From NCBI GenBank assembly GCA_051362555.1, contig CM120649.1:13826001-13890000 (forward strand): 64,000 bases of DNA. The letters run 5' to 3'. Below the pieces are notes generated by a model. That model saw only the letters and a list, made by a program, of their open reading frames with translations, did not search any database and was not told the DNA's origin. Shown in pieces: positions 4,423 to 29,500 of this stretch (positions are counted from its first letter, which is position 1; every line of letters starts with the position of its first letter). A program made the position numbers and the translations under genes. Source of the stretch: Lingula anatina (Eukaryota; Animalia; Brachiopoda).

Positions 4423-6617
4423 TCAGCTTCCTGATAGTAGAGTTCTCATTAACTCCTCTAGCTCCTCAATTTCTTGTTTTATCTGAGGCTCGGTTTTAAT
4501 CTTTTCTTCCTGAAGAGAAAGAAAAAAGAGTAGATATTATTTAGACCAAACAGTATAGCTGTAGGATGTGGTGGTAGCAGAAAACTGCTGTAGGAAATAT
4601 TTCTGTATTAAAAAAAAAAAAAAAAAAAAAAAGAGAAAGAAGAAGTTGAAGCTACAGTTTACCAATGTTTGTGCTATGCACATTAATGACAGAACATAAA
4701 ATCAATGTTCATCATACCCTCGAGAGAAAGTAAGTTACCTGATTGTCCTGTATTGTTTCTCCTTTGGCCTTCTTTGCCTTCAGCTGTTCAATTTGATCCA
4801 ATTTTTTGTGTAATGTTTTAAGTCTCTTCTCTGCAGGAGTCAGAGTTGAACAAGTCTGGGAGTCACTGGTGCCATCTGTGGCTTTGGTAACAGCTTGCTG
4901 ATTGGATGGTAAAGGAAGACTGTTGACAATCTTCTGGTATTCATCCTCTGGTATATCTGTCCTGGAATGGCGATTATCACGGTGGCAAAAAGTCAGAGAA
5001 ATTGCAACTTATGAAGACTCTATTGTACCTCAATGTTTTTCATGATACTACTCCTGGGCTGAGGTCCTTTTCACAACAAGGGAAATATTTTAGCAATACA
5101 ATTGATAACAGAAAACTGTGAGAGACTGACAACTTAAAACCATGGCCTTTGTGTAAGAAAGTCACCTAAATAAGGCAGCTGCATCCACACCTGACAGGAC
5201 CAATTAACTACCCTTATTTCTGGAGAAGTTGTAAAAAGTGTAACACACAGTGTGAAAAGGACAATAGTAAAACCTCAGGCCCACATCTACATATCACATC
5301 CCTTCAAATCCTCACCTTATCCCTGCTGCCAGGTCACTCAATATCCACAACTGTTCTCTCAATTTTCCAGCCTCCGCATGATCCTACCAGGACATAAAAA
5401 TATTAGTGTGTCACAAGAATGACAGTGAGATTAAAATTAAAAATAAAACTACGAAAAAACTAAGTATACAGCATATGGAAATCACAGAAAATAGCAACTT
5501 ATAAAAATATAAAATGCATCCCTTTAAAGGGCTGCAATTAAAAATATTAGCAAGGGAGTAGCAGTTCTTTTAATGATCAGTTTAACTGCTTATTTTTTTT
5601 ATACTTCAATCTCATTGTTAAGGAGTTGGGGCTGAAAAGTGGATCACTCAATTTGCATTTCAAGCTACCAGTACTGCTGATCACTACTACTGGTACAGGC
5701 CCGTAGCCAGGGGGGCTTATTAAAACGAGCTCTTTGTCCGTGTAAAAGTGGGCGTAATGCTTTGTTCTACTACCACCCTTTTTGCTGGGAAAAGGTCCAC
5801 TCTGGGTAAAATTTGATCTATGTACTTGAGGATTTTATGGTAAAAGGTCCACTTTTTCAGAAAACAAACCCCCCCTCTGAAATTGCTGGCTACGGGCCTG
5901 AGGTAATATAAAAGGAAGGCAACATTAAAACTGATCCCGCAGTGTCCAAAACCAAGTCAGCAAAATTATGTAAGTTTGTTATATTCACTGGTCATTTTCT
6001 TTCCATTTATTAATTTATTTATCCCCCTCCCTTTTTTTGGGGGGGTGGGGGGGGAGCAAAATTCTTTTACACTATAGTGCATGTAAGACCAGTACATGTA
6101 TCAGTATGGCAGTACTTGTAAGCTAAAAGATTTTTGGCTAAACTCATTACAGCATACCTTGTTTATCTTTGCTGTTTCTAGCTGTTGTTTAAGCAGAGGT
6201 ATGAGGTCTGCTGGTGTGACCCCTGGAGACGCGTCTGGAACACCTGACCCCGAGGACCCTAAAGTTTTCTTGTTGTGACGTTTCTTGTTCTTTTTCGCCG
6301 ATTTGGACTGGGGTGCATCTGTGAATTTTAATTTCAACAAAATACATTTTGATCAATAAGGTAAAGCAAACTAATAAATAAAAAGATAATCAGCCGTCAT
6401 CATGTAACAAGTGCAGGTATACACGTAAGTTGACAAGAAATTATCATTTAAAACGATCTCTTTGTCCATGTAAAAGTGGGCGTAATGCTTTGTTCTACTA
6501 CTTCATGCCTCTATTACACGGTGCGTTTCGTGGAACTAGTTCATTCTGATGTTTTCTTTTATATCAACACCTATGAGAACACAAGATAACTTTTTGTTTG
6601 ATAGTCCTACCTGCCAT
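4423..6617 (-). CDS. 181-aa Lys-rich coiled-coil protein resembling the PYM1/eIF2A C-terminus; coding exons 6617-6611, 6318-6158, 5383-5316, 4961-4739, 4509-4423
   Basis: Five exons with GT-AG borders and compatible phases: MADAPQSKSAKKNKKRHNKK...EKRLKTLHKKLDQIEQLKAKKAKGETIQDNQEEKIKTEPQIKQEIEELEEL...*. This matches the PYM/eIF2A C-terminal KKLxQIExLK...LEK pattern. No N-terminal Mago-binding motif is seen. Confidence 0.75.
5696..5900. mobile_element. Non-autonomous TIR element (CAGGCCCGTAGCC termini, hAT-like)
   Basis: CAGGCCCGTAGCCAG at 5696 and CTGGCTACGGGCCTG ending at 5900. A truncated second copy lies at 48432-48566. No clear TSD. Confidence 0.75.
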
Positions 6618-7000: not shown

Positions 7001-7252
7001 AAATATTTCCATGACCTTCGATGTACATGAGAAAGCGGTGTTCATTTACGCATCATTATTAATATTTGCTGGATATTTTTTATGTCGATGCTTCAACCTC
7101 TGAATCTGAATCTGAATAGGTAAACATCGAATTGCCTGTAAAGGGCAGACTCCTATTATATGTATTTTTTGTATTATTCTCTATTCTCTTAGTCTCATAA
7201 TATGTATTATTTGTATTGTTCTCCCTTTACTCTGTATGCGTATGATGCGTAT

Positions 7253-7522
7253 CGGTGGAGCTGAAATGCGCAACATTGCGCAATACAGCGCAACACAGCG
7301 CAATACACTGGAAAAAACGGAAGCGAGAGTGAGTAAACACCAGAAAAGACCTTTAACATTAAAACAGGTTCACATGGAAGCGAAATAATAAAAATATTTT
7401 ACCTAACTTTAGCTGTCAGTACCATCATCAGCCTTACCTATAAAAATGGTCGGGTCTTCCGCCATATTGAAGTGGAGCTATCAGCGTCCTTTGGCATTAG
7501 TTTCGAACTTACTTTGTGACTT
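7253..7522 (+). repeat. Left TIR of the MULE
   Basis: Reverse complement of 22701-22970; about 5 mismatches in the inner 262 bp, with more divergence in the outer 8 bp. Contains four 10-bp GCGCAAYACA-like repeats. Confidence 0.95.
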
Positions 7523-7679
7523 CTACATTCCATAAATATCAATGTTATTAATCTTTAAATGAGATAAATAAATTTAAATTATCCCCTTGAGCTATCTGAC
7601 TTTTTTAAAGATGTGAATAAGATGCAGCAGACTAGACTGAATTTTTATGAGATTATACATATATATATATAATCTATAT

Positions 7680-7716
<37 letters not shown>

Positions 7717-8254
7717 ATGAGACACATATCAACCTTGACTTGGAGTTTCACAGGCATAACCAGAAGGTATGCCCAATCATCAGGGGGTGTTTATTTGAGA
7801 CCTGGAGTCGGGGTTGATACATCTCTTGATTTATTTATTTATTTATTTATTTGAATTGTGCATAAATGCTCTGGACAGTTGAGCACTCTGTACCACACAC
7901 ACGCTTTAACACGGGTTTTTACATGTAATTTTTTTAAAATGATAGACAATATTAAACACTACGACCATACAACTAAAATCCTTTAGATCTCAAGATCTAA
8001 CATTTCTATTGACCATTAGGATGTAGAAGTTCTGAGAGTGTCCCAGAGATTGCAAATATCCTCATATATATTTTGTAATAATTGAATATGGTTCAATCTT
8101 TGCAGTCAAATGTTTTATTGAATAAAACTGACCGAAGGAAAGCAAGAACTTTAAAAGAAAGAAAGAAAATTGTCATGCAAAATTGTTTCACTGGCTACAG
8201 ATACAGTGACCTAGCTTAAATACGTTACAAATGCACAATTTATTTAAATTCCTC

Positions 8255-9070
8255 CAGGTTTCTGGATCTTGTTACTATAACCAAGCTTGGGTTACAGGTG
8301 TCAGAATGTCACGGACAAGTTCTATTGGTGATAACATCTCAGGTGAGCTACCTGCCATTACTTTAGAGCTGAAACTTGAATTACAATCAGGTGATTTCTA
8401 TTGGACAGAGTCTTACTAAAAACAGATTTTGCAAAAACTGCATTTGTTGAGAATAAATTAATAGTAAATTAAACACTCTACCCAATCAAGAAAATGTAAG
8501 CAAGGTTTCTTTAAAATAAGATATCAGAAAAAAAGCTTAGAACAATTAATGGACTACAAGACGAACATCGCACAAAGATTGCCATATTTTGAGTGACATG
8601 GATATAGTCACTACCAATGCCCCTTTAAGAGAATTTATCTTAGTGCACAAATGCCTGTATCTGTCTATAGTTATAATTGTACACCCTTTTTCAGGGTTTT
8701 CTTACCATAACCAAGCTTGGATTAACAGTTGTCAGAATGTCAGAGTCAAGTTCTGGACAGGTGACCCTGATAACATCTCAGGTGAGCTACCTGCCAGATG
8801 AGTTTTGGGCTGATGTTAATTGCAATCAGTTAGTGTCAATTGGACAGTGTATTCCACACATAGTGTCAGTCAGTCACACAGGAGAGTTGATTGCAATCAG
8901 GTAGTTAACTAGCAGTGATGAGCTAGCTGCCAGGTAAGTTTTGAGCTGAAACTAATTGCAATCAGTTAGTGTCAACTGGACAGTGTATTTCACACATAGT
9001 GTCAGTCAGTCACACAGGAAAGTTGATTGCAATCAAGCAATTAACTAGCAGTAATGAGCCAACTGCCAAA
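8255..9070 (+). repeat. Internal duplications upstream of the transposase gene
   Basis: ~8257-8410 resembles ~8693-8850 (taaccaagcttgg...gataacatctcaggtgagctacctgcca). A ~136-bp tandem pair follows (aattgcaatcag at 8818 and 8954). Confidence 0.8.
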
Positions 9071-9084
9071 AGTAGTTACCAGGG

Positions 9085-9091
9085 TATATAA
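9085..9091 (+). promoter_or_regulatory. Candidate TATA box of the transposase gene
   Basis: TATATAA ~130 bp upstream of the strong Kozak start CACCATGG (ATG at 9217). Confidence 0.4.
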
Positions 9092-9216
9092 GCAAAAAAA
9101 AAGCTGGCAACTGTGTTCACTGTTGTTCAGACATCTGACAAGTGTGTAGAACGTGTCATACTGACAAGTGTGTTACAGCATTTGATTCTGTATATTCACC
9201 TTAAAGGTCTGTCACC

Positions 9217-12200
9217 ATGGCATACAAGAGCAAGCGTTCCTGTAGATATCCATGCAGTTCCTGCCATCAGTCTTGCCATACTGATGTGATAGAATGCTCA
9301 GAATGCAAGAGGTGGACTCACAGGTATGAGGAAACATTGTAATTAAAACAAGGAGGAAAGCATCATTTAAAAGGCAACATGTACATTTTAAGACATTGTT
9401 TCCTGTGATCATTTTTGTTTCTCCTAGTAAAGCTTTCTTTAGTAGATACCTTATTCATCCACTGTCCTGTAAAAAAACACTTAAAGTAACATTTAGAAAT
9501 ATCTTTTTTTATAACACAAAAAATGGAAATGGTTCTAAAAGATATTTCTTTAGTAAATACCTTATTGACCCACTTTCCTCCTTAGAATTGTCTGTTTTAT
9601 AAACACAAAATGGCACAAGAATCAAAGTATATTACTTTCAAAAACATTTATGAATCAAAATTTATAAATGGAATCAAAATTTTATTAATAACAAACCACG
9701 TGTCATTGTTTTGCAATATGAAATCTATCAACAAAAATCAAATACATTAAAACCATTCTATTAAGCTGTTAAAATAATTCATTTTAAGGAATGAAATGTT
9801 CAAACTTATGATTAGTTTTTGTGATATGACTACAATTACAATCCTTTATTATCCCCAGGCTGTGTGTTCCTATGTCAGAGGAACTGTTTTCTGAATGGAG
9901 CCAAGAAGATGTGCATTTTATTTGCAAGTCCTGTGCTTTTACGAGTGATGGTGACTATGATTTTGATGGTGCATGCAGACGTCTTGTGGCAGTCTCCACT
10001 CAGGTATTTACCCAGCTCTATATTCATAGCCATGATTTTATGATATACAATTTTTATACCATATTTTGTGTCTGAATTGATGCCAGATTAGTGTCATATT
10101 GTACAAAGATGCAGGTAATTTTGGTCACCATCCCTCAACCCGATCAGATCATCGCACTCTTGCACCACCCAACCACTGTTTCAACAGATTCTCTTTATGT
10201 GTTTTAGTCATTGTCATTAACGAACTGCACAAGTATAGTGTCAGCCAAATTTCATCAAATTCCACCATTTACACAAGAACATTTTTGCTACCATGTATCA
10301 TAAATTCATTCATTGTTTCATAGGAAGCTGCAAAATCAGAGGAGCTGCTTCTTAAGACGTACAGGATTTTGCTTCCCATGAGATCAGAGCCTAGCAAATC
10401 AGCAGATGCAGACCCAGTTTCCACACAAATACTGAAGATTTTCCAACCAATTATGCTACAGACACATAGGTATGTTCACTACAAAAATAACAAATCTTAG
10501 AATCAATTTTACAAAAAATAACCACATAATTATCTTATTTTAAGGGGATAATAACTTCTAAATAAATAAAAAATGGGATAATAACTAATAAATAAATAAA
10601 AAATGAATTTTCCTGGAGTAAACAACAATTTTCCCATACTAACCAATGGTTAAAGCATTCAATTTTACATTCAAAGTAAGTCCCTTGTTTTTTTCTAAAA
10701 AGTTTGTTTTTTTATTAAAATCTCTTAAGAGATAATAACAGAGTCATCAATGGAGGTCACGTGATCTGAAGAATAGAATAGTTTATTCTCATTTACTGTA
10801 CATTTACAGTTTAGAGAGCATATATATATATATACATACATCAACCTGAAGGCTTGACCCCCTTATTCACAATACTAATGAATTTGTACAAATTATTCAG
10901 TTTTTTTCTTATTTTTGTTGAAAATATTTCATACATTTTAATTACATTCGGTCTAATACATGCTTTTTTTGGAATATATAAGTTTCGACTTTCTGCAAAA
11001 AAGGTACATCTAAAGACATAATGAAATTCATCCCCTATTTCATTTTTACACAAGTTGCATAATCTCAAATTTCTAGGTATTTTTTTCCATCTGCCCGTTT
11101 CAATTGGTAATCTATGATTTGTTGTTCTGAATCTAGCTATTGTAATTATTTTGTGTGTACATAAAGTAGAAAGTATATAATTCCTGCATTTAAACTCTGA
11201 GTTTGTGAATATACTATAGCTTAACCCTTTACTAGAGTTGTTACAATCTGAATTCCATTCTTGTACATACTGATCCTGCAATTTCTGTTTAACACAATTT
11301 ATAAGCCATTCCTTGTTACAGATTTCCCATCCACTTACATTCACATCCCTGCATAAATTTGTTATAAACGAGTTTATACAATATATATGAAAATTTACTT
11401 TGCTTACCTGTGAGCAAGTTTGTCCAGAATGATACAATTCTTCCTTTTATAATAATACTTAATGGCATTCTACATAATTCCCCATATATCATTATCTTGG
11501 GAGTGCTACTTACTTCATCTGTGGCCCAGAAATCATCATTTGTTCCTATTCGAGCATTAAAATCTCCTATTAAACAAATTTTATCGTATGTAAAGCTTAT
11601 GACAATATATTCTCTTTCAATTTCATTAAATGCATCTGATGAGCTGTAGTTAGACTTCCCAGGGGGTATATAAACAACACCTAGAATACAGTCATCATTA
11701 AAGTCTAAACATGATCCATCAATTTTGAACCATTGAATGTATTCTGAGTCAGTTTCAAGTGGTTCTATAAAACTAGCTAATTGATTTTTACACCCAAGAA
11801 CTATTCCACCTGAACGATAGTTTGAAAATGCTTTTCTATGTTTAGCAAAGAATGTAAAGTTTGGCAAATTAATATTGTCTTGTTCATCAGTTTTTGATTT
11901 TGTAAAACATACTATATCATATTTTTCAATTAGTTCTCTAAAGTCTGGGTACTGCAATCTCCTGCTTAGCCCACATACATTTAAATAAAAAAGTTTAAGA
12001 TCCTCTGTTATGTCATAGTCTAGATTAGTACTGTTACTAGTGCTGTTACCTTCTCTTGGGGGGTCATTGGGATATAACATATTTATTCTCAGATTATCAA
12101 GTTCATGTTGGATATTGGTGCCTTCATGGTTGTCCTATGTTCCATGTACCGATCCCCGTGTGGAGCGTGGGGTTTCCTGGGTTCGTTTCGCCGGTTGTTC

Positions 12201-15200
12201 AGGGTCGGGCACAAATAGCACGTTGTTGATATACAGTTTATCATAAACCATTACCGCTTTCTGACAAGCTCAGATTTCAGAATAAAAGCTATAAATGCCG
12301 TTTTTGTCATAAAACAGAATATATTATAATTCTGTGAGTTGTTCACAATGTTTTAATTGTGAAATATAGATCTAATATGAAAAGTTATTATCCCTTTAAG
12401 CAAACTTTCTTTTTATGCCATATTCCCTACTATAGATAGAGATGGGACACTTGAAATATAAGGAAAATTTTATTTGACCTAGTGGATGTGAATGCAACTA
12501 CTTGAACACCAAATAAAAGTAATAAAATAAAAATTGATAAGAAAAAAGGCTAAGAAATGAATTATCAATAAAAATGAATCAAACGACAGACACAACCAAA
12601 TTTTTTAAGGTTTGAAATTAACTTGGATAAGACGCATACTAACAATATAGAAAAACCATTAAAATGGATAAACCTTTCAACAGATACTCAAAATTTAAAC
12701 ACTGAAAATCTAACTAATAGATCCTTCTAACTTATAGATCCTTCAAAACAGATTTGAAAACAGAGACATATCTTCACTGTGCAATGCCGAGACCTTACCG
12801 CAGCGTTTTAGCTAAGTTGCGCTGTGGCAGTTTACCTTTACATGTAGAATCTGGCCGTTTCATACGAACCCCTTTAAATGAAAGACTATGTTTTTATTGC
12901 GATAGAAAAAATAACAGAAGATGAGATTCACTTTCTTTTAATATGTCCTTTTTATTCAGATTTATGACAAGAACTTTTAGATCAATGTCTCTATCTTAAT
13001 CCATGTTTTAGCAATTATAGTGATATAGAAAAATTTCATGTTTTTATTATGAATTGCATATATAAGTTTTTATTAGCTAAGACAGTTTTTAAAATGTTTA
13101 AAAGACAGAAATCTTTTAACTGTGTCTCATAAGCCAAAATATGGCTGGGTATTCTTTTAATTAGCAGTTTATTTTATACTGTTTTTTGTATTTTATGTTT
13201 TAAGAATATGCGACACTTTAATAAATAAATACTAATTTTGGGAAAATTAATAGGAAGAGTGTGCAGGTAATATGACCAATAATTTTTGGAAGGAAGTAGT
13301 GAAATATTTGGTAGAATTCTGTAGATCTTTGAATACCACTGACAATTATAGTGACAAGCTTAGACAATCACTCTGTAAAAATTCTATTATCAAAATAGAT
13401 GGAAAAGAATTTTTTTACAAAAGTTGATACATGAAAGGGATCAGAAGGGATCAAATTTGATGGTCATTATGCTGTTAAACATGTTACTTATGATATGCAA
13501 CCCTGTAAACACGTTTTAAGGAAAACCGTTAGGCCTGTTGTCATGAAACTCACAGGAGTAATCAATCAAAATGATAACGTGGTATTTTGAAGTAGAAAAA
13601 TTCAGGCACATTAGTAAAGTTGAGAAAGAAAGATTTAATGAGGAGTTAATGAGTAGTAGAGAGAATAATTTATATAATTTGTAACAATATTTGTGGGAAA
13701 ATAAAATACATCTAAAAAATTATTTAATGATCATTTATCATGACACTCAGCATTGTGAAGACACTATGTTTGTACAAGAAGAAGTCATATGAGACCAAAA
13801 CCCTTGCAAGAAAATTGTAAAATGCACAATTATATATAATCCATATGAGAAACATATTCATGTGAATAAACAATTTGGTGTTTATTATAATATAGATATA
13901 TGTGGTTTAAATTGTAATTTTAATTTATATTTAATTATATATTTAAATTAATAAATTTGATAATAGTTTCTCTTAAATGTCCCAATACTATTTAAAGATG
14001 ATAGGTGCAGATGAGAACTCATCTTAGTCAAAAATAGCAAGAAGCTTGAAGTCATAGAAAGACGTTTACCTTTGATACTATTAAACTTATGTTGGTAAAT
14101 GTATCATAAATCATTATTATTTAGCCTTTTTTAACATTTGATTTAGAATGGATGAAAAATCCTCAGTTTATCTTTTCATTGAATGAAATGAAATGAAATG
14201 TGTTTAACGTTTTTGTGATGAATACTTCTATAATCAGTTTACAAGTTTAAAGAAGTCATTTTTTTCAGAGTCACACTAGGTAACTCATTTAAACAAAAAA
14301 AACATATCTTTAATTTACAAATACATCCACCTCGAAATATTTTAGGAATGGTCCTCTTCCTATTGTCCAGTAGTAGGAGCCTTTTATATATAACGTACTT
14401 GCTCTTCACTATGACGTTTGATTGAATTAAGGTGACCACTGCCGCAACCCACCTGGCTGGGGAGCCAATGTAGTGAAATATGTGAGGGTTGAAAAGAAAA
14501 GAAATAGAAAATAAAGGTAGAAGTTAGTAGTCAGTACTCAGAGAGAGGACACTGTATACTGTTCTCTAGAAAGCAAAACATAACGTTACGTTAGATGTTT
14601 GTCTATGGTACGTTCACCTTCCTCCTTAACAATGGTAATGGAAATAGCAAGGGCTTCTCAATAGCAAGTGTAATAGCTTCTCAATGGTAATGGAATTAGC
14701 AAGGTGGGACATGTATAGTCCCAACTTATTTTGTCTACATATTTTGGGAAAGGATCTGTGTGAGATCTTTTTTCTCCTGGGGTAATCCCTTAATTGCCCA
14801 TTTATTTATAAAAGATCAAAACCAAATATAATGTATTCTAAAACTAGAAAAGCACTCTGAGAGCGCAGACCTCTTCCAAGGCAGCAAAGCCCCCCCCCCT
14901 CCCCCAATGCGGTTTTACCCCTAAATTTTCATTCTGTTATGATTTTTTTTTATTTTTGATTATTGATTGATTACCAATCCAGATCACCACCAAAAACTTA
15001 TCTGTCCTCTGGCCCACTTCTGGAAAACCGTTTTTATTTATATCATATTAAAATTTGGTAAAACAATATTTTGTGCAGCATTAGGGAAAAAAACAGTTTT
15101 TTTCATAACTATTTTTTAGTACAATAACTAAAAAATGTGAATTTTCTGTAACGGATGTATGTAGACCTGCACACCAAAAGCTTGTCAAAAATTATCAGCA

Positions 15201-18200
15201 CTCGTCCTTGAGGTTGACCTTTTATTGGAAACACCCTTATAGTATATTATGCACCAAGTGGTTTGAATTCTCATTGCTTACTTATACAGAACATTGTCAT
15301 TTTTTATCATTTTAGACCTTTGGAGGTGGGCACAGATGGCAACTGCTTCTACAGAGCCTTATCTCTGGGGCTTTATGGCACTCAAGAACACCACAAACAC
15401 CTAAGACTTCTCACAGCTTTGGAAATTCTCAGCTACAGGGACCATTATGATACTGAGTGTGTAGGATATAAAGGGGACTTGGACATCACACTGACAGAAC
15501 CCTATGCAGATGAAGTGAGGGCAGCCTGTAACCCAGGAAGCTGGTCTGGAATGACACAAATTTATGCTGCCAGTGCTGCACTGCAAATTGCCTTAAGGTA
15601 AATTTTTACTTCTTGTTGGGCAATATGGGTATATTATTTATACATATAAAGTCATGTTTATCCCACTGTCAAATCATTCATTAATCTTCAATTTTATTCT
15701 TTAGAAGAACCTAACTAGAAAGCAACAAGGAGATAAGTATTTATAAATAATTTATTCAGTGCTGAGAAATGTAGGAAACACAAACACTTTCAAACCACTC
15801 ACCCAAAAAACTTTTTGTGCTCAGAGTGACACTTCCAACTTAAGTATGGTTAGAATTAATATTTTTTCAGAAAAAAAATTAAAATGTAAGTTAGATATTG
15901 GAAAAACTTTTTTTTGAAATGAAATGTTTAGTATTGAACCTAGTATATTGAAAAATAAAATAAATTTAAAACTTTTTTTAAGTTACACATGTCACGTTAG
16001 AAGGAAATTATATTTGTGTGGGAATCAGCAGTCTTTACAATTCAGTATTGACAAAGGTTCCCATGTACTTTTTGTGGAAGGCATTCAAAGCAAAGTATGT
16101 AAAAAGTAAAAGTGAATCCTTGCCTTAAAAGATTGTTAAAGTAATACAGAGAATCATTCACAAGATAAACAGAAGACAAAAAGCAGCAAGTATATAGACA
16201 AAAAGCAGAAAAAAATAATGAAGTACTCTCAATTTTGATGCAATAAAACAGTCTAAATAAAATGTCAAAGATGCACAACAGCAATATTGTAAGGTAAAAA
16301 AAAATTAAGTATGTTTTGTTTTCATAACAGTGCACAAAGGGTCAATTTTGATGCAATATCACATAATGGTAAACAGCAAAATTACCACCAAATTTTAATT
16401 ATCAAATTAAAATAACATGGAAATTCAGAAAATTTGATTACCATTCAGTTTCCAAGTCCCCCATTGCAAAAATCCCCCCCCCCCCAAAAAAAATAATAAT
16501 TTGCCTGCTTTTCTAGGCTCCATTTAAATCGATATTCCCTTTTGTAGTGCAGAAACAGGTAACATGGTCACTATGGTAGCGATGGCCAAAATAGGTTTTT
16601 TTTAAATAAATTTTGATGCAATATTTCATAATGCTTAACAGTCTGATTACCACCAATTTTAGTTCTCAAATACAATAACATGTACATTCAGAAAATGTGA
16701 CTAGCAAATGGCTTAAAGCCATTTCAAGTTCAAAGTCACACCTTGAAAATGTCAACAAGAGATGACTGTACTGAAAAAAGTTTCCATTTTCAGCACATAA
16801 TATATAATAGAAAATGACCTGTTTGCTTTAATTTTCATATGATAAACTAACATAATTGCTGAGATGTGAAAATAGAACAATTATAAACACACGGACAGCT
16901 TGCTCTATTTTGAAATTCTAAACATAACAAAAGATTACTGATAACTGTATTGAAATATATGAGACTGTTTATATGACATAAATATGACACGATACTCATG
17001 AACAGTTTACCATATCAGTTTTACATAATCTAACTAACAATATTGTTGAGATGCAGAAAATGTCAAATTGAATACCTTCGTATATTATCTTCCTGAGCCT
17101 GTTAACATACCTAAGAATCAAAATTGAGGAAAATTTGTATGACTATAATCTCACGTGTATTGCTTGCAACATGGTTCCCAATGGCTTTTTAAAGGGCAAA
17201 TTTTTTGTCGAATTTTTGATTAATTATCATTGTTTTTTTGTAGGTCATATTGCCCGCCTGTATTGAATGAGCATTTTCTGAGCACCCCCCTAACGAGAAA
17301 AGTAGCTGGAAGAGGAGTCAGTAGCTCTGCTCTACCACAAGCCATCATGATGTGGACGAATACTAAGGTGCCCCACACTATGCCGGAATTCAGTCCAAAT
17401 CATTTCTCTCTTCTCTTGGAGATACATACCGAAGAATCACCAATAATAGATGTAGACATTAGCAGTGAACAGGAATCTGATCTAGACCAAGAATGTACCC
17501 TTAACAGCAGTGATATACCTGAAGAAGAAAACCTTGACACATTGTCGTGTGGAAAGAAGCTTACAGGGGGGAAATTTGTGACAGAAGCAGAAGCATTAGA
17601 AATACTTCATTCCGCAGAAGACATACTCACATGCATTCCCGATGGCAAAAAGGAAAACATAATGTTCAAAATAAATAACGAGAAAAACTTAGAGCGTCGT
17701 GCCGCTGGCCTTAGCAGTAAATTCATAGACGACTGTGGGGCTTGGGGTGGGACCCACTCACCCACAACTTTCAAAGCCAAGGTAGATTCTAAGTGGATAA
17801 CTGTCTTTAAAAAAGATGGATTGTTTTCTGTCTACAGACAGACAAATAAGAAAAGACATGCTATTCCCCTGGAACCCCAACCTTCCCAAGTACTTCAACT
17901 TCACAGATACTACACTACTTCTAAACGCAATCCAGAATACAAAAGAAGAGTAACATGGATTGAAGATAAGCAACCAGCCGTCGCCCTTGTTGAATACATT
18001 GGGACATACCCGGGCCCCAATAGTGTCCATGGTAATGCTAAATTCACAGTAAACCCCTATTGCCGCACATCAGACTACGTCATGGACTGCATTAGCGCTG
18101 AACGCGATACCAAACCACGTGAACTTTATGAAAAACTAGTCCGTGAAGCCGACTCAGAAAACAAAAGACCAGCTAATTTGAAGCAGATTGCTAATAAAAA

Positions 18201-19383
18201 GTGCTACGAAAGGAAAAAAGGTAGCTCCTCTACTTCTGGACCTTCTAATATGGCAAAAGACTTCATTAACTTACATAATTCTATTCATGAACATCCTTTT
18301 ATTCGTAGCATAAATCACAGTAAAAGCAAGTCCCCATGTGTTATGTTGTACACAGATGAGCAAATAGCCGACATCACACGATTCTGCTGCGCCAGTCCCA
18401 ACTCCAGCACTACAGTTTTGGGAGTGGACAAGACTTACAACTTGGGACACCTTCATGTGACTTCTTTGACATACAAACACCTGGGATTAATAAGAACAAA
18501 GACACAAGACCACCCCATATTTTTAGGACCTATTCTAATCCATGGACAATCAGACTGGAAGACTTTTGGAAACTTTTTTAATTCTATCGCAATGGAAATT
18601 CCTTTAAAAAATCCAAATTTAGTCATAGGAAGTGACGAAGAAAAAGCAATAAAGAAAGGTTCAAACTTTGGCTTTGGCAAAAACACTGATCACATTTCTT
18701 GTAATAGACACATAAAAAACAATGCCGTGAATTATTTGAAAGACAAAACGGGGGTCAACGAAAAAGAAAGAAATAAAATAATTTCAGCGATTTTTGGACA
18801 AAATGGACTAATATATTCTGATAATCAAGTCATTTTTGAAGAAAGGAACCAGACAGTACTCAGATATATTGAAAACTTACCTCAGTTTGAAAACCATTAC
18901 TTGGAGAATATCCTTCCCCTGTTGCAAGAAAACTTCAAAACAAAAGAAAGACACCAAGATGTACCCATAGCTTGGACAAACAATAATTGCGAATCAGTGA
19001 ATCATATTATCAAGATGAAAGTCAATTGGAAACCACAGGATACTATGACTCTGGTTAATTCACTCTATGAAATTGTCAAGGGGCAATATTTAGACATGGA
19101 AAGGGCTTTCATTGGGAGGGGGGAATTCCGATTGGACTCATATTTCCAGAGATTCAGTGTAGACAGGGGTGCATGGGCAAGCAAAAGTGCAGAGACAAGG
19201 AAAAAACACACTCAAAGGTTTTTAAATATGCCCAAAGGTAAGAGAAATATGGTTACTGCCTGTGGGTTGAATTTGATTGGGGGAACATGCAATGGGAAAA
19301 AGCCTAACCAACGAAAGAGAAAGAGAGCAGACAGAACAGTAACACTTCCAAGGGAGTCAACATGCAGCAAAAATATCATGTAG
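9217..19383 (+). CDS. 939-aa PHD finger + OTU/vertnin-like cysteine protease + MULE DDE transposase; exons 9217-9323, 9859-10003, 10324-10469, 15316-15597, 17244-19383
   Basis: All introns are GT-AG with phases 2,0,2,2; total 2820 nt, with no internal stop. PHD C4HC3: YPCSSC...IECSECKRWTHRLC...FICKSC. OTU: VGTDGNCFYRALS ... PNHF. MULE: LGVDKTYN, GSDEEKA, SCNRH, WTNNNCESVNH. C-terminal NLS KKPNQRKRKR. Confidence 0.9.
10700..12262 (-). mobile_element. Internally deleted non-LTR retrotransposon (CR1/L2-group-like) in intron 3 of the transposase gene
   Basis: ORF1 tail (KAVMVYDKLYINN, ~12260) and APE endonuclease motifs (LNVCGL, SGGI, GVVYIPP, GDFNAR) are joined directly to the post-RT region (MIYGELCRMPL; RFRTTNHRLPIETGRW...RLCNLC...GDEFHYVFRC). 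The RT core is absent. Confidence 0.88.
12690..13230 (+). mobile_element. Degenerate LINE 3' fragment
   Basis: Translates as RSVLAKLRCGSLPLHVESGRFIRTPLNERLCFYC..EDEIHF, with frameshifts and stops, followed by an AATAAA tail. Confidence 0.8.
14844..15005 (-). mobile_element. 3' part of a short Helitron/Helentron-type non-autonomous element
   Basis: Reverse complement of the 3' end of 54074-54367 (ctagaaaagcactc-gagagcgcagacctc). Confidence 0.75.
16150..16770 (-). mobile_element. Degenerate fragment of the 50745-53574 repeat family
   Basis: 'attaccaccaaatttt...aataacatggaaattcagaaaat' occurs twice and 'aaagtcacaccttgaa' once; both are reverse-complement matches to 51730-51880. Another fragment lies at ~13490-13570 on the plus strand. 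Confidence 0.6.
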
Positions 19384-19483
19384 GGGTCTTATCAGTGTTT
19401 TGGATGTAGACTTCAGATGTCTCTGAACTGCTTTATGACTTATGAAGGTTAATGACTTCAGAATTTGTCTTTCAGTGATTATA

Positions 19484-19533
<50 letters not shown>

Positions 19534-20194
19534 GGTTGCCTGAACTGAAGTTAATTGTGAAGACATTTTAGTAATTTTTGTCAGTCCAGACTCATACCTC
19601 AGCTTTATATTACATGAACTGAATATATGAGCTTTTAGTCTATTGACACCATGCAGATGTCTCTGAAGTGCTCCTGTTTCATGTCCTCAGTATATTTTTA
19701 TGTTAAAACTGATAGACATTTTCTGTACAATTTAAAGAAGCTTATTTACAGAGTATAATCACTGGTGAAGATTGTAGTAGTGTATAGTGGAGTCACTGTC
19801 AATAGAAAGATTTATAATATATTGTAACAACAGTTTTGTTTGCTCTGTACTTGTTACTTTTTAGTTGCCTGGGCTTTGGTTACTGATCTTAAGATGCCTA
19901 GGTCTAAGGTTTATTGTTCCGAAAAATCAATTGTATGCACCTCTGATGAACTTAACTTACTTTATTGTATACTGTATGCTTTATTCATGCATTAATTTGG
20001 TTTATCGAACCTTTAGCATAATGAACCTTTGGACTTTTGCTATATGGCCTCTTCGGTATTTATCGACTTAAAAGAAGTTTTTCATAGTTAAGAATATTTA
20101 TCTCCAGCAAATAAATTCATATGAAAGTAATTTCACATTGTTTGTTAGTCACAATGGGGTGTGCTAAGGCCCAATAGCTACCTACCATATTGAA

Positions 20195-20800
20195 AAATTG
20201 CAATCTGTCCAAAATGCTGCAGCACGACTTCTGACCAAAACCCCTCTCAGATCAAACATTTCACCCATTTTATTAGAACTACATTGGCTTCCTGTACGAC
20301 AGAGAATTGTTTTTAAATTACTGTTGTTTGTTTTTAAATTCACCAGAGGAGAATGCCCCTCATACTTTAACTCTACATGCTACATCCAAGTACACCTAGT
20401 CTCACCAGGTCTACCAGATCCACCTCCACTCCTTGTTTTATCAGAAATGATAATAAAAAAAAGCAACCAAAACCTACGGCCACAGGGCATTTTCAATTTC
20501 AGCACCAATTTTATGGAATCAATTACCCTCACACATTCAGACTATTGATAGCGTATTGATAGATTTAAAAACATTCTTATTTGCACAGTATTTTAATAAC
20601 ATTTTCTCATTTTATCAGAAAAAAACTTTTATTGTTCAGACCATTACTATTTTAACCAGCTTTAATTATTTTAATTGTTTTTTACCTTAGCTTTTATTAT
20701 ATATATGATTAGTTGCAATCTTGATAATTTTATCTGTAAACAGCACTGAGACACTAGTGTAGAGCGGTTTTAAGAAATAAATATTATTATTATTATTATT
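20195..20800 (+). mobile_element. L2/CR1-type LINE 3' remnant inside the MULE
   Basis: LQSVQNAAARLLTK...ISPILLELHWLPVRQRIVFKLL is the typical L2 C-terminus; (ATT)n tail at ~20781-20800. Confidence 0.85.
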
Positions 20801-22700
20801 AGCTACTGAACTAAACCTACTAACTGGCCCAAGCAAATAAGCCGAATCATTTGTCATAAATGTAGTTTAAAGATCTCAAAGAAAATTTTCTCTTAATTCA
20901 CCCGCTATGCAGTTAACTTAAGAACTGTTAAATAAATGCATTCTTACCTGCTCACAGAAATAATAAATACCATTTGACCACCAAAAGGGTGGCTAATGCA
21001 TTGTTATTGAATTTGTGCTGGCCAACACATAATATGACCTCCGTAAATAGCTATATGCACTCACCAATCTCCTTTAATGCGTGATTCATAAACTAATTGG
21101 CTATAAAGTAAATAAATCGTCCCTCACTGCATTTTGGCATAATTGAACAGATGTTATCCTAAGTCTCCTTAGGATTTAATTTTGAGCATGTTAGGTCGAC
21201 CATTCCATGGGTTTGAAAACCCCTAACCTAAAACCGCTGATTAAAGCTATATATATCCACAGTGCCGATCCACAGCTTCTTATAAAACCTAAGACAAAAA
21301 AATATATATATTCTGAAATGTACCCGATGTTGATACTACGATAGAAGCTGGGAGATGGATGCTGGTTACATTATTATGCCTGCATGACCAGAGTGGTTAT
21401 TAACTATAAATCATCCTAAATTATTGTGAAGATTCAATCCAAGTGCAGAGAGAGATTGTTACATTATTCCTAAGCATAAAATGTCCTCATTTCCCTGGGG
21501 AAAAAATCATTCTGTTGGGTAAGTGGAGTCACCCTTTAAATAAAGGCAATGGTAGAGTATGAACTTGCAGTGGTCCTGCGTCACCTTAAAATGTGTCTGT
21601 GATAGGATTCAAACTGTGGAACAGCTTTTATTTTTGTCCTATGACAGCTTGCATTTGCAAGGATTTTAGCTTGTAAAACATCTTTGGAAAATTAACTTGG
21701 ATCTTCTTGTTTAGCTTAAAGCAATAGATAATGACTTCAATTGTATATCAAAATCCAAGAAAATAATAAAATAAAATAATCATACCCCTGAGGTATTTGA
21801 GAAAACTAGTTGCTACCCTGATGTACATTGCGCACATGCATCATTCATCACTGCTGCTCTTAAATTTAATTTTTGTAGTGAGTGAAATATGAATTATGCA
21901 AATGATGAGTTTGTGACAAAAATTCATATAATTGTTAATAAGTTTTTACATTGTAGGGGAAATTTTGAATGTCAAATTTGATATCTGAATCCTCTCCAAT
22001 GCATTTTTAAAATATTGAAATACAACATCCATGTTATTGAGTACTGCTGGATTTTAAAAAGCTTATAAAAGCCAATTCTACAACTTAAACCCTCGTGCAA
22101 ACTGAAAATAAAAAGAATGATAAAAATCATCTTAAATATATGCATAAGCATTCACCAAAAACAAAATTAAAAAAGGCAGAAATTACCTGAGCAAAAATTA
22201 GAAAAACACATAAAACTTACACTTCAATTAGAAGTAAATTTAGCATTCATGTACATGCACATGAGTCTTCTGTTAATATGGGCTTATAAAGTGATTTGAA
22301 TAAAACTAATATAAATGAGATTACCCAAGGCTGCTAGTATCATTTTTTCCATGTTCATCTTAAATTGTAGAATTTATTAATGCAAACAGTCATACACCAG
22401 CCCATCTAAAATGTTCATTATATTATGTATTTTCATACAAATGAGAAAGAGAAAATCAATCCACTATTAATTGAAATTAATGCATTGAATGGATTCATTT
22501 AAAATCCAGTCTGATCAGCCGCTTGTTATGATAAATGTTAACAAAAAATATGAAAAAAAAAAAACCAGTATGATGAAACCAAAGTCATCTGACAAACCAA
22601 GCCAGTCTAAACAACACGAGTTCAGACATAAAAAACGAAGTAGAAACTCCCTAAACTTAGTACACAAAAATAAAATTTACATTAATTTATTAAGCTGATA

Positions 22701-22970
22701 AAGTCACAAAGTAAGTTCGAAACTAATGCCAAAGGACGCTGATAGCTCCACTTCAATATGGCGGAAGACCCGACCATTTTTATAGGTAAGGCTGATGATG
22801 GTACTGACAGCTAAAGCTAGGTAAAAGATTTTTATTATTTCGCTTTCATATGAACCTGTTTTAATGTTAAAGGCCTTTTCTGGTGTTTACTCACTCTCGC
22901 TTCCGTTTTTTCCAGTGTATTGCGCTGTGTTGCGCTGTATTGCGCAATGTTGCGCATTTCAGTGTGACCC
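22701..22970 (-). repeat. Right TIR of the MULE
   Basis: Inverted copy of 7253-7522. Confidence 0.95.
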
Positions 22971-23391
22971 TGATGCGTATCGTTTGATATGAATATATAA
23001 TGTAGCGGTGTAACCGACACATTTGTTTATTTATGACCTTATTCTCAGTTTTGATATCTCTTGTATATTTTTAGTACAGCAATTATTTGACAAACTTAAA
23101 TTATAGTACTAATGAATTAAGTATTACAGAATTTACAGACCACAGAAACCAAAAACTTCAAGCATTCCTTGTGTCTCATTGCCATCTATTTGGTTTCAAT
23201 GTGGGCTTCATTAGATGAAAATTTATTGATTTGTTTTTATTTATTCAATTTTCTTTTAACCATTTGTGTGAACCACTATTACACTTACTTTAATGCTACA
23301 CCAAGAGAAGTAGACATTTCACACTTTAAATTTTTGTATAATTTTTTTAATTTGTCATTAATTTTTTTATAACTTAGGCTAGATGTAAATC

Positions 23392-26500: not shown

Positions 26501-29500
26501 TTCTCATTGTCTAGGTTACATGTAGGCAGTTCTCCCAAGCAAACGAAGAGTTGATGAAACAACAGAAAGAGACAGCTGAGGGAGTCCAAAAAAACACCAA
26601 TAAGAAAATCCAGATTTTGGAATCAAGGTAAGCAGATCTAGAGATATGGCATATTGCACAGGTTTTTTACTAAGATATGACAAAGAAAATTTATCCAAGA
26701 ATTCTTGAGCTGTTATATTGAGAGTAACAGTTTCTGGAAAGAGGGGGTGGGGGTGGGGGGTCTTTCTGGCTTTTGCTTTTATCAGGAAGATCTAGAATTA
26801 CATGATGCAAGTGTTTGGTTATTTTATGATGAATTATAGAATTTATTTATTTAAAGTATATGAAAGAAAATGTATTAATTTTTTCTTTAGCATTAAGAAG
26901 AAAGATGAGACCATAAGCAAGGTAAAAGGTATGTAATATGAATTTTTTTATGTGTTTAAAAACTTCACAATATATATTAGGTCATATAAAAGCATTAAAA
27001 GGCACATGAAAGTTTAATAACTATGGGATCTTCATTGTGTCACAGTTTACTGAGGTCCCACAGTGTATTATCCATGATATTAAAGTTGAAGCAAATTGGT
27101 GCCTGCTGTCATTGTACCTTATCTCACGGTATTTTACTGTGTTCATGTATTCTTTCTTTTTAATCTTAGACCCCATTCCCATACCTAGATCAATCCAACA
27201 AGATCGACCCATCTCCACGGGGTTTCTCACTAAATTGCTTGTAGCTTAAGTGGATTATATATCTGGCACACCTACTGAAACTGCTAAACAATAGTTAATT
27301 ACCCCCTAACAGCATCAGTAGGCAGGCCAGACATCAGAGCTTCATAAGCTGAAAGCAATTTGGTGAGAAAGCTCTCGGAGATGGGTAGATCTTGCTAGAT
27401 CGATCTTGGTATGGGAACCAGGTCTTAGTCTCAGAGATTTGGCTGGAACCCCACAGTGCATTTTCATATTGATGCAATACTATATTTGGTAACTGTTGTC
27501 TGTTTATATGAATCAATCACATTTAAATTTTAATACTAGTCATTGATAAAAATATGCATTCCTGAGTGGATTCCATCATGTTTTATGGTTATTGCTGGAG
27601 ATATATATGAGAGAGAGTTGCAGTAGGCAGACTATTCGTGAAAAACTTGTGGGCAATGGTCCTATTATGAGGTTGAGTTATCACAAGGATTTCAGTTTTC
27701 TCTTCACCATTGTGATAGGAATATAAAGTTCATTTTGTCTAAAACTGAAAGTCTGACAATATCATCCCAGTTATTGGCCTATTCCTGATTGTGAGCACAG
27801 CAAATCAAAATGCTATCTCACATTCTCAGTTAAAGCCTTCAGCTTTTTAAACTGTTTCTGCTGTTTAACATGGTGGGTGAGGGTACACGTCAGCCATATT
27901 GCCATACACACGGCTAAAGTGGTGCCAATAATGATGCTTTCTAAAATATAGTCCGGCATGACGAACACTTTCACAACCGCCAGTGCCTCATTTACCAGGT
28001 CTGCTGTCTTACACACATAATCCCCAGAATCTGCAAGTTCGGCGTTGCGAATGATGAGACGGCCATCTTGGAATGTCTGAATATGTGAGGTGTTGTCCCC
28101 TGGTGAGATGAGTGTATCGTTATATCCGTCTGGGTCAAATGGCATGCGCCTGTACCACCTCAAGGTCACATTCTCGGGCCCGTGAAAGTTGCATTTTATG
28201 TGGTAGTCAGCAGTGCCATTTTCTATAGGGTTTTTCCGGGGACATGTCGTCAGGTTCTTGAAATATTCCGGCCAGTCATAATGACACTGTGCAGAGCATG
28301 ATGGGATTGCCGTCATGGCTATCAGTACAAGACCCAGCAAAAGTCTTATTAAAGCTGTGGTCTCCATGGAATTCATCTGAAGTATTGGTTTTATGGTTAG
28401 TTTGAGACACTGGAAAATAGTTGAATGGCTTGATGAGTTAATTAAATCACATAATTGAATAAAATTCTGTTCCTTCTTAATTGGACAAGTAATGCTTCGA
28501 GAAGCACTGTATTGTCAGTGATATGAGCATGCATTAAAGGAGATAATTCAATCATTTACCCATTTAATATTTATTTATTTATTTACTTTTGGAAACAAAA
28601 ATTATCTGTTGACTAATACATTAAAATCCACATGACAAATAAACTTACAGCAATTCATATTTTCATGCATAACTTTGTCAAATATCATTATTTGAACTGT
28701 AACAGTAACTTTTGTTTATACATTTTGTAACCTGTGAGTTTTCATCTTCCATTTCATTGACCAAAGGTTTAATGAAGTAGATATATATATTTTTGTATTT
28801 GTTCTGGTGTGGGAGTGATGTCAGCCCTATATAATACTAGTATATATCTCCTCAGATATTATGGTATGGGAAAAATGGTCATTTACTGAGTACAGACTCT
28901 TTAATCTGATTGGTTTGATATCTGTGGCGTCAACTCTAGATAGAAGACATTCTCACTGTCTGACACTATTTTTACTACTGTGACCCTCCTGCCACCATGG
29001 TAGTAGAAATTAATGGCTCATAGCAGAAACAGACTGGCAAGTAACTGAACACATTTGCAAAATGAATTAAATGTGTCTTGAAAAATTCCCAATCAAAGTA
29101 CTGATGTTCTTGATAGGCATTGAAATATTGGAGGTAAACAACACCTTCAATATAATATTGAGTGAAAAAAAATCAGTTACTGTAAGAGTTACTTATTTTA
29201 AGTTATTCTTTGTATCTGTCTTGGTATGGTCTCAGTGTACTAAATACTTATTATAAACCTTTTTTATTATTTTGAGAAGTTTAGTCACCTGCTAAGGACA
29301 TAAAGTTGTGCCCTGTATTTAGGTCAAGCCCTACAATCATGCACTTGAGTCAAATCCCATTGTTGCTCAAGTAGACAATCATTTCTGCCCCCCCCCCCCC
29401 CCGATGAGGGTGAGTAACAGTCTAGGAAGTGATGATTTAAAGGAACATCCATGCAGATAATGTCTTAAATTTGTTAGGGAGATTGGCGATGTTACTGTTG

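What the first reader, a model, noticed from the sequence alone, without database searches (positions are those of the whole stretch)
7253..22970. Intact giant MULE encoding a single PHD finger-OTU protease-transposase fusion
Seen in sequence: 270-bp TIRs, a 10-bp TSD and five phase-compatible exons giving one 939-aa ORF. The ORF has an N-terminal C4HC3 PHD finger, an OTU/vertnin-like domain with apparent catalytic Cys (DGNC) and His (PNHF) on different exons, and a complete MULE core (D..D..CxxH..E). Established: PHD fingers commonly read histone H3 tails, OTU domains are deubiquitinases, and some MULEs carry Ulp1-type proteases. Inference: this transposase may carry its own chromatin reader and deubiquitinase, either to choose promoter-proximal chromatin or to resist ubiquitin-dependent silencing or degradation. 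It may be related to the element type from which vertebrate vertnin (VRTN) derives. I cannot establish novelty without a search.
Basis: partly seen in the sequence, partly recalled or inferred. Interest (0 to 1): 0.9.

Follow-up and report, generated by a model that had tools for sequence, protein, structure and literature searches.

The report
Intact MULE with PHD-OTU transposase
This is an unbroken animal jumping gene whose cutting enzyme is predicted to be made as one chain with a likely histone-reading finger and a likely ubiquitin-removing enzyme; the layout is common in invertebrates, and this copy would be a ready one for testing what such cargo does.

Summary
Confirmed: a 15.7-kb Mutator-like element (7253-22970) with 262-bp TIRs (98% alike) plus 8-nt tips, a 10-bp target duplication, and five GT-AG exons giving a 939-aa PHD-OTU-DNA-binding-DDE protein. 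The model aligns over residues 1-928 with a Lingula RefSeq protein (44%). Three related loci hold all four domains in one stop-free frame, so the fusion does not rest on splice prediction. One of three RNA runs has sense reads on exons 1-4; no junction read was seen. OTU Cys and His are kept in 160 and 161 of 162 relatives. The PHD is Pygopus-like and keeps both aromatic cage walls. The layout is widespread (23 of 279 other fetched proteins are complete), and the size comes from repeat-filled introns and flanking non-coding DNA. MULE+OTU and transposase+PHD are each in print; I found no paper on the triple fusion. This scan saw it three times on other DNA. Vertnin is the top structural match of the OTU module (TM 0.79), but the same OTU type rides hAT, DDE_1 and Helitron proteins, so a MULE origin of VRTN is open. 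OTU and transposase trees conflict, suggesting module swapping. Likely role: a chromatin-tethered deubiquitinase aiding transposition; untested.

The parts
7243..7252 (.). left target-site duplication, 10 bp
   Evidence: identical to 22971-22980
7253..7522 (+). left end: 8-nt tip plus 262-bp TIR core with four 10-bp tandem subterminal repeats at 7268-7307 (likely transposase sites, inferred)
9217..9323 (+). exon 1, start codon, first part of PHD finger
   Evidence: sense reads in run X8
9859..10003 (+). exon 2, rest of PHD finger and first linker helix
10324..10469 (+). exon 3, linker helix and start of OTU module
10598..12399 (.). high-copy repeat halves in intron 3 interrupted by a decayed LINE-like piece (minus strand, about 10841-12134)
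   Evidence: Exo_endo_phos E 7.2e-5 and zf-RVT E 0.037, both under cut-off; joints 10770-12263 and high depth
15316..15597 (+). exon 4, OTU N-terminal half; catalytic Cys143 codon at 15344-15346
   Evidence: Pfam OTU 27.1 bits against cut-off 23.3; X8 depth 4-10 at five places
17244..19383 (+). exon 5: OTU C-terminal half (His280 at 17401-17403), acidic linker, WRKY/GCM1-like DNA-binding region (about 17548-18030), DDE core (D622 18427, D691 18634, E810 18991), basic C-terminal tail, stop
   Evidence: fold of relative P0002 matches ISCth4 transposase
20168..20690 (+). decayed retroelement-like remnant in the 3' non-coding part
   Evidence: ORF fragments; no Pfam hit for 20168-20545; resemblance to LINE C-termini is recalled, not from a call
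22701..22970 (-). right end: 262-bp TIR core plus 8-nt tip
22971..22980 (.). right target-site duplication

Best explanation
This is a TIR- and TSD-bounded Mutator-like transposon with an unbroken five-exon frame, whose predicted single 939-aa protein likely works as a cut-and-paste transposase carrying a likely H3K4-methyl-reading PHD finger and a likely active OTU deubiquitinase that would strip ubiquitin from the transposase complex or nearby chromatin. Shown: the ends, the frame, the domains, the conserved catalytic residues, and single-frame fusions in relatives. Inferred from MULE biology: the C-terminal two-thirds bind the TIR repeats, cut and paste, and leave a 10-bp duplication. Inferred: PHD, helical linker and OTU fold as one unit on a flexible acidic tether. 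The PHD would dock the complex on H3K4-methylated (active) chromatin, and the OTU would then remove ubiquitin locally, either degradative chains on the transposase or repressive/damage-signal ubiquitin at the site. Odds by step: element and fusion about 0.95; OTU an active isopeptidase about 0.8; PHD binds H3K4me about 0.6; the whole tethered-DUB mechanism about 0.45.
For: Ends and frame. Collinear 44% match to P0002 over residues 1-928. 3 of 80 metagenome loci have PHD-OTU-DBD-core in one stop-free frame, and 7 more have all four domains in separate frames. 108 of 109 relatives with 250 aa or more before the DBD carry the OTU; 27 of 31 with room for a PHD carry one. OTU Cys 160 and His 161 of 162 at median 28% identity; 12 of 174 OTU-bearing proteins were left out by span. 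Cys is present in 10 of 10 hits of an exon-5-only query that lacked the Cys motif. DDE: D 58/58, D 58/58, E 56/58, the 2 others gaps. Model of the N-terminal module of relative P0131: pLDDT 84, pTM 0.81; matches VCPIP1 Z 14.8, OTUD3 13.6, TRABID 12.9, Cezanne 12.6, A20 12.4, Pygo PHD 8.6. PHD best sequence hits are Pygopus (E 4e-6 to 2e-4). Pygo cage walls Y341 and W366 (PMC2726290) map to Y11 and W33; Trp is in 36 of 36 relatives that cover the place, an aromatic at 11 in 24 of 31. Sense polyA reads on exons 1-4 in X8. Helitron-borne VTD DUBs were characterised as enzymes and proposed to protect transposition proteins (PMC9741609).
Against: No activity, binding or insertion-site data. X8 also has same-strand reads inside intron 3, so the mRNA may not be the clean five-exon form. 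The residue two after His280 is Ser here and Val in 149 of 162, not Asn/Asp, so the third triad residue is unresolved. Pygo's acidic lip D352 and E360 are not kept in this copy, and the cage-base position is variable. The window's own Pfam MULE score (15.6 bits) is below the cut-off of 27.6. Both structure models are of relatives, not of this protein. Conservation counts are partly biased by profile-based retrieval. A DNA sample holds a copy with an exon-2 frameshift.
Confidence: 0.45

Rival explanations
1. The OTU is a self-processing protease that cuts the chain in the acidic linker to release or activate the transposase; ubiquitin is not the substrate.
For: Proposed for Medicago MULE-OTU fusions (PMC1702500 passage). 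A disordered linker lies between the modules (aa 290-342 of P0002 at pLDDT under 50). The window has LTGG at aa 333-336, like the ubiquitin C-terminus (recalled).
Against: By eye that GG is not kept in the relatives printed (not counted). The nearest folds are all deubiquitinases. It does not explain the PHD.
Confidence: 0.12
2. The module is an anti-silencing device: it acts at the element's own TIR promoter or on host silencing factors to keep the element transcribed, not at the cut-and-paste step.
For: The DNA-binding region would bring it to the TIRs. Sense transcripts exist in one run. PMC9741609 speculates on a germline anti-restriction role for transposon DUBs.
Against: A reader of an active mark fits docking on open chromatin better than reversing a silent state. 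Expression is low and absent from two runs.
Confidence: 0.2
3. The OTU is an active DUB, but the PHD is a structural or protein-binding partner of the OTU and does not read histones.
For: PHD, linker and OTU model as one unit (pTM 0.81). The cage base is variable and the acidic lip is missing. Pygo needs its HD1 partner for binding (PMC2726290 abstract and passages).
Against: The Trp that is essential for H3K4me binding in Pygo is kept in 36 of 36 relatives.
Confidence: 0.17
4. PHD and OTU are captured host fragments without function for the element (Pack-MULE-like), or the locus is a domesticated host gene.
For: MULEs capture gene pieces (PMC6446971 abstract). Introns hold nested repeats that suggest some age.
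Against: In-frame fusion in 108 of 109 relatives and near-invariant catalytic residues at 28% median identity. 98% TIRs and an exact TSD point to a recent insertion. A broken version occurs in another sample.
Confidence: 0.04

Closest known systems
MuDR-6_HM (Hydra; MULE group 14 of Dupeyron et al. 2019, PMC6446971)
   Same: Animal MULE, one ORF, listed with an 'Ovarian Tumour Gene' motif.
   Different: Listed with no TIR, no TSD and no zinc finger. Its sequence could not be read, so shared clade and domain order are untested.
Lingula anatina LOC106157457 (P0002) and Styela, Littorina, Branchiostoma relatives (P0087, P0150, P0005)
   Same: Same PHD-OTU-DBD-DDE order; P0002 is 941 aa and 44% identical end to end.
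   Different: Annotated as uncharacterised proteins (or a mis-named fusion), not as elements; their ends were not examined.
Medicago MULE-OTU transposases (PMC1702500)
   Same: MULE transposase with WRKY-GCM1 domain fused to an OTU protease.
   Different: OTU is C-terminal there; plant host; no PHD on the same protein in the passage read.
Ginger1 transposases, Ulp1+PHD Mutators (PMC2836005) and Rehavkus (PMC6446971)
   Same: Animal DNA transposases carrying OTU or Ulp1 proteases and sometimes a PHD finger.
   Different: Ginger1 has another catalytic family and C-terminal cargo; in its table PHD goes with Ulp1, not OTU. Rehavkus has a PHD, a 9-bp TSD and a minisatellite, with no OTU listed.
Vertebrate vertnin (VRTN)
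   Same: Top structural match of aa 61-290 of P0002, TM 0.79 over 220 residues, against 0.51-0.58 for ordinary OTU clusters. Called an inactive OTU homologue in PMC10318531; it has a transposase-like HTH (PMC3024977).
   Different: VRTN lacks the catalytic residues that this family keeps. No vertnin row appeared for the MULE DNA-binding region. The same OTU type occurs on hAT, DDE_1 and Helitron proteins.
A20/Cezanne/TRABID/VCPIP1 and OTUD1/3/5 deubiquitinases; Pygopus PHD
   Same: Nearest solved folds and sequences.
   Different: Only 13-21% identity for the OTU; chain preference and histone binding cannot be transferred.

Membership tests
MULE (Mutator/MuDR) superfamily | Long terminal inverted repeats | tested here: met
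   262 bp, 98%; 8-nt tips unmatched
MULE (Mutator/MuDR) superfamily | 8-11 bp target-site duplication | tested here: met
   10 bp exact; range from Table 1 of PMC6446971
MULE (Mutator/MuDR) superfamily | DDE triad with CxxH after the second Asp | tested here: met
   D622, D691, C713, H716, E810; 56-58 of 58 relatives; signature recalled
MULE (Mutator/MuDR) superfamily | MULE profile or IS256/MULE fold | tested here: met
   Window alone E 0.022, below cut-off; 12 of 21 relatives pass the cut-off, P0002 among them; P0002 model's top hit is ISCth4 transposase, E 9e-6
MULE (Mutator/MuDR) superfamily | WRKY/GCM1-type DNA-binding region before the core | tested here: inconclusive
   Feature hits FAR1/GCM 0.91-0.93, structure TM only 0.42 to CG-1 proteins; CG-1 E 8e-4 below cut-off
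MULE (Mutator/MuDR) superfamily | Dispersed copies and demonstrated mobility | not testable with these tools
   No genome held; no second copy of the ends or gene in the window
OTU deubiquitinases | OTU fold | tested here: met
   Pfam above cut-off for exon 4; Z 12.3-14.8 for the top six chains on a relative's model
OTU deubiquitinases | Catalytic Cys and His | tested here: met
   C143 and H280; 160 and 161 of 162
OTU deubiquitinases | Third triad residue (Asn/Asp) | tested here: inconclusive
   His+2 is Ser/Val; D140 (155 of 162) and N279 (143 of 162) are candidates; geometry not measured
OTU deubiquitinases | Cleaves ubiquitin isopeptide bonds | not testable with these tools
   needs an assay
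H3K4me-reading PHD fingers (Pygopus type) | C4HC3 finger | tested here: met
   aa 13-61; relatives P0087 and P0116 pass the Pfam PHD cut-off; Z 8.6 to Pygo
H3K4me-reading PHD fingers (Pygopus type) | Cage walls Y341 and W366 | tested here: met
   Y11 and W33 by alignment through P0002
H3K4me-reading PHD fingers (Pygopus type) | EVND loop with D352 | tested here: not met
   Loop two residues shorter; works-like claim lowered, not a Pygo orthologue
H3K4me-reading PHD fingers (Pygopus type) | Binds methylated H3K4 | not testable with these tools
   needs an assay
MuDR-6_HM group (group 14) | Transposase falls in that clade | not tested
   The paper's alignment files could not be read
Rehavkus | 9-bp TSD | tested here: not met
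   10 bp fits equal arms and the tips of L016
Rehavkus | Minisatellite before the 3' TIR | tested here: inconclusive
   None among the 20 repeat families shown of 39; no dedicated tandem scan was run
Vertnin family | Helix plus OTU-like N-terminal module | tested here: met
   TM 0.79 between predicted models
Vertnin family | Catalytically dead OTU | tested here: not met
   Cys and His kept here; vertnin lacks them
Vertnin family | Vertnin_mid and HTH regions | tested here: inconclusive
   No vertnin row for aa 345-600 of P0002; no VRTN sequence was retrieved

The most novel reading that the evidence does not exclude
A large, unnamed invertebrate MULE lineage carries a swappable 'reader-eraser' cassette (Pygo-like PHD, helix, active OTU) that steers and protects transposition on H3K4-methylated chromatin. 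The cassette is traded among MULE lineages and other transposon superfamilies, and a dead copy of its helix+OTU part was domesticated as the N-terminus of the vertebrate vertebral-number gene VRTN.
Probability: 0.3. Interest if true: 0.75.

Novelty: new variant of a known kind. Interest (0 to 1): 0.45.

Why it matters
Many DNA transposons carry ubiquitin or SUMO proteases, and transposon OTUs were called untested in 2022 (PMC9741609). This copy has both ends, an exact target duplication, an unbroken frame and some sense transcription, so it offers one 2.8-kb coding sequence on which deubiquitinase activity, histone reading and their effect on jumping and target choice can be tested. It also gives a catalytically intact structural relative of vertnin's dead domain.

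Tried and rejected
No whole genome is held, so copy number and empty sites are untested. No RNA holder was listed among indexed runs, which is no evidence either way. A search meant to fetch vertebrate VRTN covered only proteins of 1137-3245 aa and could not contain it, so no tree with VRTN was built. The Atlas search of the DNA-binding region showed no vertnin row; that absence is weak. TSDs were not found around the TIRs of L049, L016 or L019; L031 gave only a 9-of-10 match in an odd register. No convincing TIR was found in 8 of the 10 loci scanned. 11- and 12-bp TSD readings were considered and judged less likely. Pfam found nothing telling for the host exons next to the element. A look-up of earlier findings by sequence was empty. 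Passages of PMC6431247, PMC6875170, PMC5751038, PMC10027918 and PMC6001657 held nothing on this fusion. No complex prediction was run.
Full report
1. The observation. The element runs from 7253 to 22970. Its inverted arms are 7261-7522 and 22701-22962, 262 nt and 98% alike, with four 10-bp tandem repeats near the tip. The outer 8 nt differ between the ends. The flanking direct repeat is exact over 10 bp and can be stretched to 12, but only 10 leaves arms of equal length. A related locus, L016, has an 8-nt tip of each of the same two kinds outside its own TIR core. This is one locus, but it supports these boundaries and suggests that unmatched tips are a family trait.

2. Is it one protein? The spliced model aligns over residues 1-928 with P0002, a 941-aa Lingula anatina RefSeq protein, at 44% identity. 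Junctions 1, 3 and 4 fall at ungapped conserved positions; junction 2 lies in a variable loop. Of 80 metagenome loci kept (of 220 confirmed), 3 hold PHD, OTU, DNA-binding region and catalytic core in a single stop-free frame and 7 more hold all four in separate frames. The fusion therefore exists without any splice model. For this copy, three RNA runs and one DNA run were laid on 9060-15900. Run X8 (polyA, about 6% read) has reads on the strand expected for sense RNA under the usual library convention. Depth is 3-10 per exonic base on exons 1-4, 0 in a bin inside intron 1 and 0.02 just before exon 4. X11 and X14 have no depth in the bins over exons 1, 2 and 4. No splice joint was among the 15 of 57 joints shown, and junction 4 was not covered. 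X8 also has same-strand reads within intron 3. So transcription is supported in one run, and splicing is consistent but not seen. In DNA run X3 the contig over exon 2 has a one-base insertion, a contig leaves the sequence at 10385 in exon 3, and exon 4 has five substitutions, three silent. A broken allele or copy thus exists in another sample.

3. Domains. Exon 4 passes the Pfam OTU cut-off; exon 5 gives only weak MULE (E 0.022) and CG-1 (E 8e-4) hits, while 12 of 21 scanned relatives pass the MULE cut-off. A model of P0002 (pLDDT 78, pTM 0.48) matches ISCth4 transposase and OTUD1. A model of the PHD-helix-OTU part of relative P0131 (pLDDT 84, pTM 0.81) matches VCPIP1 (Z 14.8, rmsd 3.6, 186 aligned), OTUD3, TRABID, Cezanne and A20 (Z 12.4-13.6) and the Pygopus PHD (Z 8.6, 58 aligned). 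Both models are of relatives. Cys143 and His280 are kept in 160 and 161 of 162 OTU domains (12 of 174 dropped for span) at 28% median identity. Retrieval by profile biases this, but all 10 full-OTU hits of a query lacking the Cys exon also keep the Cys. The usual Asn/Asp two residues after His is absent. The DDE residues and CxxH are intact. The PHD's best solved relatives are Pygopus fingers. PMC2726290 (passages) names Y341, W366 and D352 as cage walls and W366 as essential; Y11 and W33 correspond, W in 36 of 36 and an aromatic in 24 of 31 covering relatives, while D352 has no counterpart. The region aa 329-489 resembles FAR1/GCM/CG-1 domains.

4. Family. P0002 finds 499 clusters (50% identity level) at E up to 1e-30 (best 150 seen). 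Among 279 fetched proteins, 23 have the complete four-domain order, 108 of 109 with room before the DNA-binding region have the OTU, and 27 of 31 with room before the OTU have the PHD. Named hosts with MULE parts include a brachiopod, molluscs, tunicates, a lancelet, a crinoid, a rotifer and a horsehair worm. L049 is bounded by 111-bp TIRs at 7.3 kb, so 15.7 kb is not a family trait. Here it comes from introns and flanks carrying LINE-like remnants and high-copy repeats. The same OTU type also sits on hAT-type, DDE_1 and Helitron proteins. For 56 proteins with both domains, OTU and transposase distances correlate only weakly (Spearman 0.34, Mantel p 0.001). The two main OTU clades are rejected as clades on the transposase tree (AU p 1.1e-5, quick LG+G4 tree). 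The groups came from the OTU tree, but I had seen a FastTree transposase tree before the test, and only 11 of 53 branches are strongly supported. I read this as likely exchange of the N-terminal module between lineages.

5. Mechanism. Shown: ends, frame, domains, conservation. Inferred from established MULE biology: cut-and-paste by the DDE core. Inferred and untested: the PHD docks the complex on H3K4-methylated chromatin, and the OTU, on a flexible acidic tether, removes ubiquitin from the transposase complex or local chromatin (0.45 as a whole). Rivals are anti-silencing at the element's own promoter (0.2), a non-histone role of the PHD (0.17), self-processing (0.12) and passive cargo (0.04).

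6. What is known. PMC6446971 (section 6 read whole; passages; supplement search; its alignment files unreadable, and they bear on clade membership) lists MuDR-6_HM with an ovarian-tumour motif and Rehavkus with a PHD. PMC1702500 (one passage) reports C-terminal OTU on Medicago MULEs and PHD on other MULE relatives. PMC2836005 (passages) reports OTU, Ulp1 and PHD on Ginger1 and Ulp1 with PHD on Mutators. PMC9741609 (passages) says transposon OTUs were untested. PMC10318531 and PMC3024977 (passages) call vertnin an inactive OTU homologue with a transposase-like HTH. In the listings of searches (fusion; vertnin) I saw no paper describing the PHD-OTU-MULE order or deriving VRTN from it; the library lacks Repbase, Dfam and most subscription papers. 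Vertnin is the top structural match of the helix+OTU module (TM 0.79) but did not appear for the DNA-binding region, and no VRTN sequence was retrieved. Three earlier notes of this scan describe the same layout in other genomes; I had reached the reading and the Hydra precedent before seeing them.

7. Verdict. A real, apparently intact member of a widespread invertebrate MULE lineage; a new variant of a known kind. Its value is as a test substrate and as a lead on module swapping and vertnin's origin. Interest 0.45.

Noticed in passing
window 7253-7260 and 22963-22970; L016:1-8 and L016:3350-3357: The outermost 8 nt of the two ends differ, and a distant relative shows the same two tip types in swapped orientation to the gene; unmatched tips may be a family trait.
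   Followed up: partly
56 fetched proteins with OTU and catalytic core: OTU and transposase trees conflict (AU p 1.1e-5), suggesting the N-terminal module moves between MULE lineages.
   Followed up: partly
P0128, P0135, P0284, P0287 (hAT-type), P0148 (DDE_1), P0132, P0288 (Helitron), P0077 (FLYWCH-MULE), P0136 (Death domains): The vertnin-like OTU occurs on several transposon superfamilies and on one Death-domain protein.
   Followed up: partly
window 9916, 10385, 15340-15438 (run X3): Another sample carries a version with an exon-2 frameshift, a break in exon 3 and five exon-4 substitutions, while the laid intron parts of the longest contigs show no other letters.
   Followed up: partly
window 14327-14784 and 11121-12723: Sense-strand reads in X8 inside intron 3, depth 12-14 at 14611-14630 with the window's own letters; possibly a cryptic exon or retained intron.
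   Followed up: no
window 4712-5008 and 6101-6352 (minus): Two exon-like frames of a probable host gene, the nearer about 0.9 kb from the element; no telling Pfam hit; whether the element is in its intron or upstream is unresolved.
   Followed up: partly
window 8259-8414 / 8689-8853 and 8783-8918 / 8919-9054: Duplications upstream of the start codon, including a 136-bp tandem pair at 90%.
   Followed up: no
window 27813-28514, 33355-34944, 48819-50525 (minus); 40694-45614 (plus): Neighbouring host genes: an Ig-domain membrane protein, a UDP-glycosyltransferase, a RING/B-box protein, and long low-complexity exons without Pfam hits.
   Followed up: partly
window 50817-52892, 54189-54372: A cluster of repeats also found in pieces inside introns 3 and 4 of the element.
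   Followed up: no
P0013: The one relative of 109 with room before the DNA-binding region but no OTU; its N-terminus looks by eye like a Ulp1-type protease (recalled motif, not tested).
   Followed up: no
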